A stretch of 54,312 bases of DNA, taken from the NCBI GenBank assembly GCA_045614725.1, contig JAZLDK010000052.1, forward strand, positions 1 through 54,312. Reading direction: 5' to 3'. The position numbers are program-made. The stretch comes from Candidatus Enterousia sp. Its GTDB lineage: Bacteria > Pseudomonadota > Alphaproteobacteria > Rs-D84. Shown here piece by piece: positions 30,001 to 32,937 of this stretch (positions within the stretch are counted from its first letter, which is position 1; each line of letters opens with the position of its first letter).

Positions 30001-32937
30001 TCATCGCAAATTTTCCCACAACACCCCAGATTTTATACCAGACAAATCCACATTTCAACAAAAAACAGGCACATTCTAACTTTATCCTTGATTTTTATCG
30101 TATGGACCGTATAATTAGCACAGTTTTTAACCGCCCTAATAGTCTAGTGGTAAAACACGTCCTTGGTAAGGACGAGTCGCAAGTCCGATTCTTGCTTAGG
30201 GCACCACGATTCCACCGCCCCCGGGCGGTGTTTTTATGTCCGGGATTATGTCCAGTATATGTAAAATAATCTGCTAAAAATCGCAAAACCGCATAAATTC
30301 GGGCAAATAACACGAAATAAAAAAATCCCGGAACACCGGGAAATTCTGGTAGCAGCGGAGGGATTGTCTGATTCCCATATTCGCTTTCGCTCTATAGGCC
30401 CCTTTCGCTACGTATGGTTCAAACTTCGTTTACACTCGTTTTCACCAACTGACGCCCCGGACCCTGGGGTCCTTATCGTCCTTTACTAACCAAAATTAAA
30501 ACCGCCACACGGGCGGTTTAAATTTTGGTAGCAGCGGAGGGATTCGGACCCCCGACCAAAGGATTATGATTCCTCTGCTCTACCACTGAGCTACGCTGCC
30601 AAACGCCACGCATTATAACAAACTTTTTTCCAAATGCAAGAAAAACGATATACTGGATTTCATTCTTATTTAAAACAATTATATTTTTTAATAACCTATA
30701 TTAAAAGCCAACTCAATATATGATACCATACGCCCTATGAACAAAATTAGCCTATTTTTACTGTCGGCCCTGATATTGGCCCCTGCGCACGCCGCCGAAA
30801 ATCCTTTTTTCAACGGCTATACAAACCAGGTTGGTTTTAACTTTGGATGGGGTGTAAACCACGGATTTATCATTCCACCACCAACCCAATGGGTGCCATT
30901 CAGCATGTTTCAGTTTCAATATGCCCAGCCCACAACATTTTTCCGCCTGCCGGCGCGCATGTCGTTGGGCGTGGTCCAAACCTTGGGACACGGCAAGAAA
31001 TATGGATGGAATTGGGAAAAATACACGATTCCAATCGCTTTATTGGGCCAAGATATAGCCCTGGCATATGGTGACGACTGGTACACTTATACCGGCCTGT
31101 CCGTTGGCATGCAACTGCAACAGAACGAACGCATTGGTTCCAAATTAATATTCGGGTTCAAATTGGGCGCTGGGTATCATATTTCAGAATGCACCGCAAT
31201 CGAGGCATATGTCCAACATTTTTCCAACGGCAACACGGCCCCCGAAAATAATTCATATGCATTCTATGGCATGGGAATTACATACAGTTTTTAAGTTTCC
31301 TCCTAAACAAGAACCGCCATTTTGGCGGCTCTTTTTTTTACCATTCAATCGGCGATTTACCATGCGCAACCAGATATTCATTTGCCTGACTAAAATGCCG
31401 ATTTCCGAAAAATCCCCTGTACGCGGAAAGTGGCGATGGGTGCGCACTTCTAAGCACCAGATTTTTTTGCATATCAACAAACCCTGCTTTTTTCTGGGCA
31501 TAACTTCCCCACAGCATATAGACAATATTTTCGCGCGCCGCCACGGTACGAATAACCGCATCTGTAAATTCTTCCCATCCGTGTCCTGCATGCGATGCGG
31601 CCGCATGTGCCCGCACCGTCAATGTTGCATTTAACAACAGCACGCCCTGATTTGCCCAGTGTGTCAAATCACCATTAGTGACAGATTTTCGCCCCAAATC
31701 AGATTCAATTTCTTTATAAATATTAACCAAGGATGGCGGCACCGCGGTCGGTGGCAACACAGAAAAACAAAGCCCATGCGCCTGTCCCGGTTCATGATAT
31801 GGGTCCTGGCCGATAATAACCACCTTGACCCTATCCAAGGGGCATAAATTAAACGCATTAAAAACATCCTTGGGCGCGGGATAAACGGTTCGACCCGACA
31901 AATATTCCGCCCGCACAAAATCCGTCAGTTTGATAAAATAATCCTTATCAAACTCGGCCGCCAACGCATCTTTCCAAGACTGTTCAATTTTCACATTCAT
32001 AGTTTTATCAACCCCTGTTGCAAAGATTTCCAAAGAACAACATCTATATACCCGCACGGCAAACCCGTTTCACGAACCAAATGCGCAAACATAGCATCAC
32101 AGGCCACCTTGACATCCGGATTTAATTTCGCATTATTTATTTCAAGTTTTTTATCTATAAATGCGCACCCAAGTCGTTGAATCCAAATATCATATTTAAC
32201 AATATCTTCACCCAGATTTCGCGCCAAATGATTTGCGGTTATTTTTCCGATATGCGGCAACAATTGCAAATATTTTAATTTATTATCAAGACCATCCAGC
32301 GCATAATATCCATCACAAATTTTTTGTCGCGCATCCCATATTTTGCAAATTGCGCCGACTTTATTTTTATTATTAAAAATTGCAATTAATTCATCAAAAT
32401 TTGCACCGTTTTTGGCCAATACAGCAATAATTTTTTCATGAATTTTTTTCGCGGTTTTTTGGGAAAAACCACCTGCTAAAATCACGTATGCACAATGCGC
32501 TGCAAATTCATCGGCATTATATTTTTTTTGCATACGCAATCCCGCCAAAATTTCATCAAAAGATTGCGCATCACTGTCCAAACCCATTTTGCGCAATTGG
32601 GAATCCAGATTAAAAAACCACTGGGCCGAAAAATCCATTAACTACGCCGCCCTGTTTCCACTGTTATATTGAAACAACTTTTTACGCGCCAACTCTTTTT
32701 CATCTTCAAGTCGTTTGGCATCTTCCATAACATCCATTGTACCACGTCTAAATTTATCGGCCTTGGATTCAGAAGCCATCTGTGCCAGTTCTTTTTTTAT
32801 GGCTTCGACCCGTGCGCGTTTGTGCCAATCTTGCGCCTCGGAGTGTAAACCCGCCCCTTCGGCAAGTTCTGTCTCTAATGCACTAAGTTCTGCTTCCAAA
32901 CGCGCACGCCTTTTCGAAACCATTTTATTTCCTATTA

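What the first reader, a model, noticed from the sequence alone, without database searches (positions are those of the whole stretch)
30347..30600. The same ~110-nt module sits next to tRNA-Met(CAU), but ends in that tRNA's own 19-nt 3' end
The reverse complement of 30347-30472 aligns with 6957-7084. There is a 21-nt block with one mismatch (ggggcgYcagttggtgaaaac), then a short non-homologous block (13 vs 16 nt). Identical blocks follow: gtttgaacc, tacgtagcgaaaggggcc (18 nt), aagcgaa and atgggaatcagacaatcc (18 nt). After the shared aatcc the two copies diverge completely. Copy T continues with the tRNA-Tyr end (acccactcccacca) and copy M with the tRNA-Met end (ctccgctgctacca), each an exact 19-nt copy of the neighbouring tRNA from T-loop to CCA. 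The 5' hairpin differs in sequence but keeps its pairing (gaacc-act-ggttc vs ggacc-cca-gggtcc). The layout is the same at both loci: tRNA, terminator, spacer, module, tRNA-end copy, second terminator. One conserved element fused to two different tRNA 3' ends is not expected from a single site-specific island. It suggests either a family that retargets between tRNA T-loops (the junction lies within aatcc) or a structured RNA that needs a tRNA-like 3' tail.
Basis: seen in the sequence. Interest (0 to 1): 0.8.

Follow-up and report, generated by a model that had tools for sequence, protein, structure and literature searches.

The report
RtT-like structured RNA behind tRNA genes
A strongly conserved, folded ~95-nt RNA module sits just downstream of several tRNA genes in a gut alphaproteobacterium, wedged into a partial copy of each tRNA's own 3' end, which is the layout of the old and still unexplained E. 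coli "RtT" repeats but with a different core sequence and a far wider set of tRNAs.

Summary
Two ~95-nt cores (6971-7065 +; 30366-30457 -) are homologous. Each ends in an exact 19-nt copy (A58-CCA76) of the adjacent tRNA (Tyr, Met). New here: the 7-9 nt before each core also copy that tRNA (about nt 49-57). The core therefore splits the T loop of a truncated tRNA copy.

The same core occurs in 18 copies in Candidatus Enterousia genomes, always downstream of a tRNA: Met, Tyr, Gly-CCC, Ser-GGA, Ser-UGA or Arg-CCU. Its fold has 22 pairs, all paired in every copy, and 7 show compensatory changes. At orthologous tRNA-Met loci the core is 98% identical, against 42-72% for the flanks.

Relatives lack the Tyr unit exactly between the 19-nt repeats. 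No integrase, transposase, reverse transcriptase or TnpB lies in the 54 kb. There is no phage or plasmid match.

The E. coli tyrT 178-bp repeats (rtT RNA, Rfam RF00391) have the same anatomy, but the Rfam model does not hit these units.

Verdict: an RtT-type tRNA-trailer RNA and a new variant of a known, functionally unexplained kind. How it spreads between tRNAs is unresolved.

The parts
30526..30600 (-). tRNA-Met(CAU), 75 nt, with an unusual T loop UCCGAAU (C55). It is the source of both tRNA-derived flanks of unit M.
   Evidence: ARAGORN; Rfam tRNA 66.3 bits
30499..30519 (-). Terminator-like hairpin 1, between the tRNA and unit M.
30473..30498 (-). Spacer ending in the GAUAAG motif (GAUGAG/GAAGAG in other copies; GGUGAG/GAUGAG in E. 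coli RtT).
30458..30472 (-). 5' hairpin GGACC-CCA-GGGTCC plus G. GGGTCCG (30458-30464) is a copy of tRNA-Met nt 51-57.
30366..30457 (-). A-type core module, copy M: GGGGCGUC...GGGAAUCAGAC.
   Evidence: Covariance model R1, 127.1 bits; covariation
30347..30365 (-). Tail: an exact 19-nt copy of tRNA-Met A58-CCA76.
30326..30341 (-). Terminator-like hairpin 2, after the tail.
6815..6901 (+). tRNA-Tyr(GUA), the second gene of a tRNA-Gly(UCC)-tRNA-Tyr pair.
6908..6927 (+). Terminator-like hairpin 1 of unit T. It is part of the 183-nt block that relatives lack.
6957..6970 (+). 5' hairpin GAACC-ACT-GGTTC plus G. TGGTTCG (6964-6970) is a copy of tRNA-Tyr nt 51-57. GGACGTG, a 6/7 match to the tRNA acceptor 5' strand, lies upstream at 6942-6948.
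6971..7065 (+). A-type core module, copy T. It is the most divergent copy.
   Evidence: R1, 114.8 bits
7066..7084 (+). Tail: an exact 19-nt copy of tRNA-Tyr A58-CCA76.
7092..7108 (+). Terminator-like hairpin 2. It is orthologous to the only tRNA-Tyr terminator of relative L037, so it is the original terminator.
7127..7317 (+). A second, older unit shared with L037. Its left arm GGAGCGGGTGGAT (7127-7139) is complementary to its right arm CACCCACTCCCACCA (7303-7317), a 15-nt copy of the tRNA-Tyr end. Together they form an acceptor/T-stem 'minihelix' enclosing about 160 nt. Terminator 3 lies at 7326-7346.
44468..44583 (+). F-type unit behind tRNA-fMet (44326-44402). It has the hairpin GAACCACT-GAAAAA-AGTGGTTC plus A (= tRNA nt 49-57), a different ~80-nt core, and a truncated tail AATCCATTCCCC.

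Best explanation
These are RtT-type tRNA-trailer RNAs. Each unit is a truncated copy of the upstream tRNA: about nt 49-57 on the left and nt 58-76 including CCA on the right, sometimes with traces of the acceptor 5' strand. A conserved structured core of about 95 nt sits in the T loop of this copy, between nt 57 and 58.

Shown. The core folds on the tRNA-sense strand into two elements. One is a long rod with tandem G.A pairs and a GNRA-type cap. The other is a hairpin, CCCAUA-GA-GC[GAAA]GC-GAA-UAUGGG. The core is held almost as constant as the tRNA itself.

Inferred, by analogy with E. coli rtT RNA. The unit is transcribed as the distal part of the tRNA transcription unit, by read-through of the first hairpin. 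One copy has no hairpin there, and another unit type lies inside a tRNA-tRNA spacer. The RNA is then released by the tRNA-processing machinery, with its 3' end trimmed to the encoded CCA because the tail imitates a tRNA 3' end. In the Met copies the invariant GUAGCG-AAA-GGGG pairs with the tail to give an acceptor/T-arm-like top half ending in UACCA. The stable ~130-170-nt RNA then acts through its conserved loops on an unknown partner.

The 19-nt or longer direct repeat (tRNA end and tail) makes units easy to lose precisely, to duplicate in tandem, and probably to exchange cores between tRNA loci. The short T-loop sequences that bracket every core would serve as the exchange points.
For: Anatomy. 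The same core occurs in 18 copies. All 14 with enough flank abut a tRNA on the same strand; a 15th (L007) ends in a partial tRNA at the contig end. Six tRNA identities are involved. The 5' flank is cognate in 10 of 10 units of five core types. Structure: 22 pairs, 100% of cells paired, 7 pairs with double changes, 0 of 500 shuffles as good, and slid controls collapse. U.G pairs occur on the tRNA-sense strand only. A distant homologue in L042 keeps the rod through compensatory changes. Selection: at 7 orthologous Met loci the core is 98% identical and the tRNA 99.6%, against 72% for terminator 1 plus spacer and 42% after the tail. Paralogues are not homogenised. E. coli tyrT/tyrV units have the same parts: the hairpin GAACCUU-CGACU-AAGGUUC plus G (AAGGUUCG = nt 50-57), a core containing GAGCGAAAGCGAG, and the tail AATCCTTCCCCCACCACCA. 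The annotated rttR 3' end is that CCA. RtT has a covariation-supported tandem GA motif (bioRxiv 10.1101/2020.02.04.933952). RtT-family RNAs lie next to other tRNAs, Asn and Lys, in Pasteurellaceae (PMC4986893). Co-transcription is plausible: L026 has no hairpin between tRNA-Arg and its unit, and in L039 a unit lies inside the Gly-Tyr spacer. Predicted fold of copy M. No mobile-element genes in the window. No phage or plasmid match.
Against: There is no expression data, and most units lie behind a good intrinsic terminator. Rfam RF00391 does not detect any Enterousia unit even at E<=10, so homology to RtT is not established. The outer helix of the Rfam RtT structure (upstream strand with tail) is not supported for the A-type copies, because cognate duplexes are no better than non-cognate ones. 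The tail is dispensable in some lineages (L017, L018, L023, L014). The function of RtT itself is unknown, so the analogy explains production, not purpose. The model does not by itself explain how one core came to lie in six different cognate tRNA contexts.
Confidence: 0.55

Rival explanations
1. A miniature integrative element. The 19-nt repeats are attL/attR of a tyrosine integrase that crosses over in the T loop, as P4-type integrases do. The ~165-nt unit (terminator 1, spacer, hairpin, core) is a non-autonomous element, or the eroded remnant of one, mobilised in trans.
For: The window carries exactly 183 extra nt relative to L037, bounded by the 19-nt repeat, and terminator 2 is the original terminator. 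A 113-nt unit between tRNA-Gly and tRNA-Tyr is present in L039/L040 and absent in L041, which encodes the identical XthA protein. The same tRNA loci hold different unit types or none in relatives. In L043 a 1.9-kb gene island sits right after the F tail, flanked by copies of the tRNA-fMet CCA plus trailer. Terminator 1 of copy T resembles terminator 1 of the Gly-CCC unit in L016.
Against: No integrase lies in the 54 kb or in the fetched loci next to units. An attR should carry a contiguous T arm, whereas here the core separates nt 57 from nt 58. One attP arm that is about 90% identical with six different 19-nt cores is not how integrase specificity evolves. Precise loss by recombination between the repeats explains empty sites equally well. 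The 98% conservation of orthologous cores beside 42-72% flanks and the RNA-type covariation are not expected of an inert att arm.
Confidence: 0.2
2. A single-strand DNA transposon relic or an RNA guide. The core is an IS200/IS605-like miniature element inserted 3' of a T-loop motif (TTCG, TCCG or TTCA) without target duplication. Alternatively its transcript is an omega-RNA-like scaffold whose 3' 19 nt guide a TnpB-like protein to the tRNA gene.
For: The core splits the T loop with no duplication at the junction. The invariant internal GGGGCC can pair with the left flank GGGUYC, as IS200/605 ends pair with their target motif. The scaffold-plus-3'-variable-19-nt layout resembles omega RNAs. GCGAAAGC is a very stable hairpin as DNA too (own knowledge).
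Against: No TnpA, TnpB or IscB lies in the window. E. coli K-12, which has the same architecture, has no such partner for RtT (own knowledge). The guide would target the cell's own essential tRNA gene. Tails decay while cores stay intact. The model does not explain why an intact tRNA plus terminator always precedes the split copy. Orthologous copies are under purifying selection.
Confidence: 0.08
3. A retro-insertion. The unit RNA, which ends in a tRNA-like CCA, is reverse-transcribed, joined to tRNA sequence by template switching, and integrated by recombination at the tRNA gene. This is the route of the Neurospora mitochondrial retroplasmids.
For: The duplicated stretch is the 3'-terminal 18-19 nt of the mature tRNA including CCA, the same length that reverse transcriptases copy from tRNA primers. 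The 5' inverted repeat of nt 51-56 could be a snap-back relic. Repeat length varies: 19, 20, 23 and 59 nt.
Against: No reverse transcriptase was found. CCA is genome-encoded in these tRNAs, so it is not diagnostic. In some copies the repeats extend through the terminator, that is, beyond the mature tRNA. The model is purely inferential.
Confidence: 0.05
4. Neutral debris: an ancient partial tRNA duplication with no function.
For: Some tails and some units are visibly degenerate (L023, L034, L042).
Against: Core identity is 98% against 42-72% in the flanks. Every one of 242 cells pairs, and 7 pairs have compensatory changes.
Confidence: 0.03

Closest known systems
RtT RNA / E. coli tyrT 178-bp repeats (Rfam RF00391; rttR)
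   Same: It lies directly 3' of a tRNA gene on the same strand. It ends in the tRNA's last 19 nt (A58-CCA76). It is preceded by a hairpin whose 3' arm copies tRNA nt ~50-57. It contains tandem G.A motifs and a GCGAAAGC hairpin. A GAUGAG-like motif precedes the hairpin. It can be tandemly repeated (E. coli x3.14; L029 x2; L046). It is found next to several tRNA identities (PMC4986893; bioRxiv 10.1101/2020.02.04.933952; PMC2658671).
   Different: The core sequence is different and longer (about 95 vs about 70 nt). The Rfam model gives no hit at E<=10. An intrinsic terminator usually separates the tRNA from the unit. RtT's outer helix is not supported here. The host is an alphaproteobacterium with a reduced genome, not a gammaproteobacterium. 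At least four to five core types coexist in one genus.
tRNA-gene attachment sites of integrative elements (T-loop-to-3'-end direct repeats of P4-type islands; own knowledge)
   Same: A 16-22-nt direct repeat of the tRNA 3' end flanks the inserted DNA. Presence or absence is precise. Real islands use the same loci.
   Different: The insert is only about 165 nt and carries no integrase. The core interrupts the T arm instead of lying beside an intact core site. The same arm sequence occurs with six different repeats. The conservation pattern is that of an RNA.
TnpB/IscB omega RNAs (scaffold plus guide)
   Same: A conserved structured scaffold is followed directly by a variable ~19-nt 3' segment that matches a nearby genomic site next to a constant motif.
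   Different: There is no nuclease gene. The 'target' is the cell's own tRNA gene. The tail ends at CCA followed by a terminator and is lost in some copies.
tRNA-like 3' domains (tmRNA tRNA-like domain, viral and retroplasmid tRNA-like ends, acceptor/T minihelices)
   Same: The 3' end is NCCA, preceded by tRNA acceptor and T-stem 3' strands. In Met copies and in the second Tyr unit, a complementary 5' strand gives a top-half-like helix.
   Different: There is no intact T loop. The pairing partner is not conserved across tRNA types.

Membership tests
RtT RNA (RF00391) | Lies immediately downstream of a tRNA gene, on the same strand | tested here: met
   All 14 copies with enough flank abut a tRNA on the same strand.
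RtT RNA (RF00391) | Ends in a copy of the last 19 nt (A58-CCA76) of that tRNA | tested here: met
   The tail is an exact 19/19 match in most copies (10 of the 14 evaluable) and 18/19 in two. CCA is lost in three Met copies, one of which (L023) also has internal mismatches. In L014 nine central nt differ from the adjacent tRNA.
RtT RNA (RF00391) | A copy of tRNA nt ~49-57 within a hairpin immediately 5' of the core | tested here: met
   Suffix match is 7-9 nt and the cognate tRNA is best or co-best in 10 of 10 units, including E. coli.
RtT RNA (RF00391) | Scores above the Rfam gathering threshold (45 bits) | tested here: not met
   E. coli units score 133-137 bits. There is no RtT hit at E<=10 for copy T, copy M, the F-type, C-type or E-type units.
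RtT RNA (RF00391) | Outer helix between an upstream strand and the tail (Rfam consensus structure) | tested here: inconclusive
   Cognate duplex energies are no better than non-cognate ones. Met copies instead pair an internal GUAGCG-AAA-GGGG with the tail. The second Tyr unit has such a helix.
RtT RNA (RF00391) | Tandem G.A motif in a covarying helix | tested here: met
   GGU-GA-AAAC / GUUU-GA-ACC is flanked by pairs with compensatory changes. For RtT itself, see bioRxiv 10.1101/2020.02.04.933952.
RtT RNA (RF00391) | Released from the tRNA transcript as a stable RNA ending at the CCA | not testable with these tools
   This needs RNA-seq or end mapping.
tRNA-integrating island / att remnant | Direct repeats of the tRNA 3' end bound the insert, and the empty site is precise | tested here: met
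tRNA-integrating island / att remnant | An integrase gene in or beside the element | tested here: not met
   47 ORFs of the window were scanned and none is a recombinase. The gene tables of the fetched loci show none.
tRNA-integrating island / att remnant | A contiguous core (intact T arm) at the distal junction | tested here: not met
   The ~95-nt core separates nt 57 from nt 58.
IS200/IS605 miniature element or omega RNA | An associated TnpA/TnpB (or IscB) gene | tested here: not met
   None lies in the 54 kb. The whole genome is not available.
IS200/IS605 miniature element or omega RNA | Insertion 3' of a fixed short motif without target duplication | tested here: inconclusive
   The junction always follows T-loop nt 57 (TTCG, TCCG or TTCA). 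However, an intact tRNA copy always precedes the unit.
IS200/IS605 miniature element or omega RNA | Neutral decay of orthologous copies after insertion | tested here: not met
   The core is 98% identical against 42-72% for the flanks.

The most novel reading that the evidence does not exclude
The RtT architecture reflects an undescribed process that places structured modules exactly between nt 57 and 58 of a tRNA-end copy. In this architecture a structured core splits the T loop of a cognate partial tRNA, and it is now seen with at least five core types in two proteobacterial classes. One possibility is an RNA or single-strand element that homes to T loops through internal-guide pairing (invariant GGGGCC with GGUUC, GGGA with UCCC). 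Another is a set of tRNA-specific RNAs whose cognate 3' halves act on their tRNA, for example as 3'-end donors or decoys.
Probability: 0.12. Interest if true: 0.85.

Novelty: new variant of a known kind. Interest (0 to 1): 0.5.

Why it matters
RtT has been an unexplained feature of the E. coli tyrT operon since the late 1970s (date from own knowledge), and it is usually treated as an enterobacterial oddity. The same anatomy is shown here in a distant, genome-reduced gut alphaproteobacterium: the T-arm 5' half, a structured core, then A58-CCA. There it serves at least seven tRNA genes, uses several core types, and its cores are conserved about as strongly as the tRNAs. This argues that tRNA-trailer RNAs of this design are a widespread functional class and not debris. 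It also provides a comparative data set of covarying helices, invariant loops and natural losses from which function and mode of spread can be tested.

Tried and rejected
- Rfam at gathering and at permissive thresholds gave nothing but tRNAs on the units.
- Exact-pattern scans of viral contigs gave 0 hits and 6 chance hits.
- BLAST against phages and plasmids gave no match.
- The single metagenome scan added only one more Met copy.
- I tested whether an upstream strand pairs specifically with each tail, as in the RtT outer helix. Cognate pairs were no better than non-cognate pairs, so the idea was dropped for the A-type.
- I considered a hammerhead-like reading of GAUGAG plus hairpin. The GAAA and cleavage-site elements are absent, so I rejected it on the sequence.
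- I considered the core as a degenerate tRNA 5' half, because GGGGCGU-CAGUUGGU resembles an acceptor strand plus D loop. There is no complementary acceptor strand, so I left it as a resemblance only.
- An exact-protein look-up of the window's XthA found nothing on record.
- No consistent sigma-70 promoter precedes the units. TGGTATAGT occurs in 5 of 7 Met loci but not in the window copy.
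Full report
**1. The observation**

ARAGORN finds five tRNAs in the window. 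They include tRNA-Gly(UCC)/tRNA-Tyr(GUA) at 6734-6901 (+), tRNA-Met(CAU) at 30526-30600 (-), and an initiator-type tRNA-Met at 44326-44402 (+).

The long identical blocks occur only at these two places, against about 0 expected by chance.

Each copy ends in an exact 19-nt copy of its neighbour tRNA from A58 to CCA76. Each is bracketed by terminator-like hairpins.

**2.

The bases immediately 5' of the shared core are also tRNA-derived. They are TGGTTCG in copy T and GGGTCCG in copy M. The Met version reproduces that tRNA's unusual C55.

Ten units were compared: five core types, including E. coli. In all ten, the 7-9 nt before the core match the cognate tRNA up to nt 57 better than, or as well as, any other tRNA.

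The core (6971-7065; 30366-30457) therefore sits between nt 57 and 58 of a truncated tRNA copy. The '5' hairpin' is the T-arm 5' half paired with an upstream complement.

**3. Distribution**

One scan of 185,579 species genomes found the core only in Candidatus Enterousia and unnamed gut alphaproteobacterial MAGs from ruminants and humans. AspRS, XthA and DUF374 homologues confirm that the window is an Enterousia-like genome.

With the window and one metagenome contig there are 18 copies. All 14 with enough flank lie downstream of a tRNA on the same strand. The tRNAs are Met (most copies), Tyr, Gly-CCC (3), Ser-GGA, Ser-UGA and Arg-CCU.

- The tail is the cognate A58-CCA76 in nearly all copies.
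- In some copies the repeat runs on through the terminator: 59 nt in L011, and similarly in L014 and L024.
- Three Met copies have lost CCA, and one of these (L023) also has internal mismatches.
- In L014 nine central nt differ from the adjacent tRNA.

**4. Structure and selection**

Eleven distinct copies were tested against a structure of 22 pairs. It consists of a long rod and a hairpin.

- The rod contains CGU:GCG, GU:AC, GGU:ACC, a tandem GA, AAAC:GUUU, and a GNRA or GCC/GGC cap.
- The hairpin is CCCAUA-GA-GC[GAAA]GC-GAA-UAUGGG.

All 242 cells pair. Seven pairs have compensatory double changes, no shuffle out of 500 reaches this, and slid controls collapse. The wobble pairs are U.G on the tRNA-sense strand, so that strand is the one that folds.

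RNAalifold also proposes pairing of the left flank GGGUYC with the invariant GGGGCC. That pairing competes with the 5' hairpin and with the CCC:GGG extension of the second hairpin, and the data cannot decide between them.

Across seven orthologous tRNA-Met loci, mean pairwise identity is as follows:

| Segment | Identity |
|---|---|
| tRNA | 99.6% |
| Terminator 1 + spacer | 72% |
| Hairpin + flank | 95% |
| Core | 98% |
| Tail | 95% |
| 70 nt after the tail | 42% |

Paralogous copies in one genome are not homogenised. The core is therefore under purifying selection in place.

**5. Gain and loss**

Relatives' tRNA-Gly/tRNA-Tyr loci lack unit T. The window has exactly 183 extra nt: terminator 1, spacer, hairpin, core and tail. 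This block is bounded by the 19-nt repeat, and the window's second terminator is the orthologue of the relatives' only terminator.

L039/L040 carry a 113-nt unit (94 nt plus a copy of the tRNA-Gly end) between tRNA-Gly and tRNA-Tyr. L041 encodes the identical XthA protein and lacks this unit.

The orthologous tRNA-Met locus varies among relatives:
- no unit in L028;
- two tandem ~180-nt units of an unrelated core in L029/L030;
- the A-type core in the window and most other genomes.

After tRNA-Tyr, L042 has a distant homologue of the A-type core (R1 26.5 bits, E 1e-5, rod kept by compensatory changes). L034 has a degenerate one.

The F-type unit behind tRNA-fMet is conserved in L043, in L044 (with a full 19-nt tail) and in L046 (tandem). 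It is absent in L045.

Because recombination between the repeats removes a unit precisely, empty sites do not prove recent insertion.

**6. Context**

All 47 large ORFs of the window are housekeeping genes, for example ruvA, mnmE, xthA, aspS, uvrB, gyrB, lpxK/C, pilus genes and rhamnose genes. There is no integrase, transposase, reverse transcriptase, TnpB or Cas gene. The core has no match in phage, plasmid or viral collections.

**7. Comparison with the known**

The E. coli K-12 tyrT-tyrV region shows the same design in each 178-bp unit:
- GGGGAAGG, which pairs with the tail;
- a (G/A)UGAG motif;
- the hairpin GAACCUU-CGACU-AAGGUUC plus G, in which AAGGUUCG equals tRNA-Tyr nt 50-57;
- a ~70-nt core containing GAGCGAAAGCGAG;
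- the tail AATCCTTCCCCCACCACCA (A58-A76).

The annotated rttR RNA ends at that CCA. Rfam RF00391 scores these units at 133-137 bits. It finds nothing at E<=10 on any Enterousia unit.

The literature held here adds three points:
- RtT-family RNAs lie beside tRNA-Asn and tRNA-Lys in Pasteurellaceae, are released from tRNA operon transcripts, and have been linked to the stringent response (PMC4986893, citing Bosl and Kersten 1991, which I could not read).
- RtT has a covariation-supported tandem GA motif (bioRxiv 10.1101/2020.02.04.933952).
- rtT copy number varies between Salmonella strains (PMC2658671).

The finding therefore works like RtT and shares its defining layout, but it is not a member of RF00391 by the model test. 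I class it as a new variant of that kind.

**8. Mechanism**

*Shown.* The layout is established. The strand-specific conserved fold is established. Selection on the core is established. Precise presence or absence at the repeats is established. No mobility genes lie nearby.

*Inferred.*
- Transcription is by read-through from the tRNA promoter. L026 has no intervening hairpin, and L039's unit lies inside an operon spacer.
- The 3' end is matured at the encoded CCA.
- In Met copies, GUAGCG-AAA-GGGG pairs with the tail to give a tRNA top-half mimic.
- Cores spread between loci by recombination at the universal T-loop sequences that bracket them.
- The partner of the conserved loops is unknown.

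*Rivals.* The alternatives are a miniature integrative element, an IS200/605-like element or guide RNA, and a retro-insertion. They are weighed in the rival-explanations part of this report. None has a supporting gene, and the first two conflict with the split T arm or with the conservation pattern.

Noticed in passing
window 7127-7317 (terminator at 7326-7346); L037 16508-16720: A second, older unit lies behind tRNA-Tyr. Its left arm GGAGCGGGTGGAT (L037: GGGAGTGGGTGGAT, a perfect complement of tRNA-Tyr nt 61-72) pairs with its right arm CACCCACTCCCACCA. The result is an acceptor/T-stem minihelix ending in CCA that encloses about 160 nt. One pair reads U.G in L037 and C.A in the window.
   Followed up: partly
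window 44468-44583; L043 7700-9600: The F-type unit behind tRNA-fMet has a truncated tail that has been reshaped into a terminator stem (CCCC-TT-GGGG). In L043, whose DUF374 protein is 98% identical, a ~1.9-kb island with RhuM-family and HD-domain genes lies right after this tail. The island is flanked by CCAAGATTT, which is the tRNA-fMet CCA plus trailer, so it used the tRNA-end copy region as its site.
   Followed up: partly
L029 7354-7740 (also L030): Two tandem ~180-nt units with an unrelated core follow the orthologous tRNA-Met. Each has the hairpin GAACCCCC-GATAAA-GGGGGTTC plus A (GGGGGTTCA = tRNA nt 49-57) and only 'ACCA' plus the terminator as the repeat. Several extra genes (MarR-like and others) lie between this tRNA and aspS.
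   Followed up: partly
L039/L040 19194-19312 vs L041 19201-19206: A 113-nt insertion (94 nt plus a copy of the tRNA-Gly(UCC) end with one mismatch) lies between tRNA-Gly and tRNA-Tyr. It is present or absent among genomes that encode the identical XthA protein.
   Followed up: partly
L014 4841-5111: The tail of the Ser-UGA unit (AATCCCGAACCCGTCGCCA) differs from the adjacent tRNA (AATCCCTCACCATCCGCCA) in nine central nt. GCCA plus the ~33-nt terminator is repeated almost exactly. Either the tRNA acceptor stem or the tail has been replaced.
   Followed up: no
window 30526-30600 and 6815-6901: tRNA-Met(CAU) has a T loop UCCGAAU, with C in place of the near-universal U55. tRNA-Tyr has a C4.U69 mismatch in the acceptor stem and scores only 38.5 bits in Rfam.
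   Followed up: no
window 41546-42484 (-): lpxC is split into two ORFs, of 174 aa (N-terminal half) and 132 aa (C-terminal half). It is a single 310-313-aa gene in relatives. This is a frameshift, a stop, or a sequencing error.
   Followed up: no
window 5905-14072 vs L034-L042: Gene order around xthA and the tRNA-Gly/Tyr pair is rearranged repeatedly among Enterousia genomes: inversions, and 1-3 tandem AMP-binding enzyme genes.
   Followed up: no
window 45286-49932 (-): A 1548-aa ORF has only a short N-terminal Peptidase_M48 match. It is conserved next to the fMet locus in L043 and L045.
   Followed up: no
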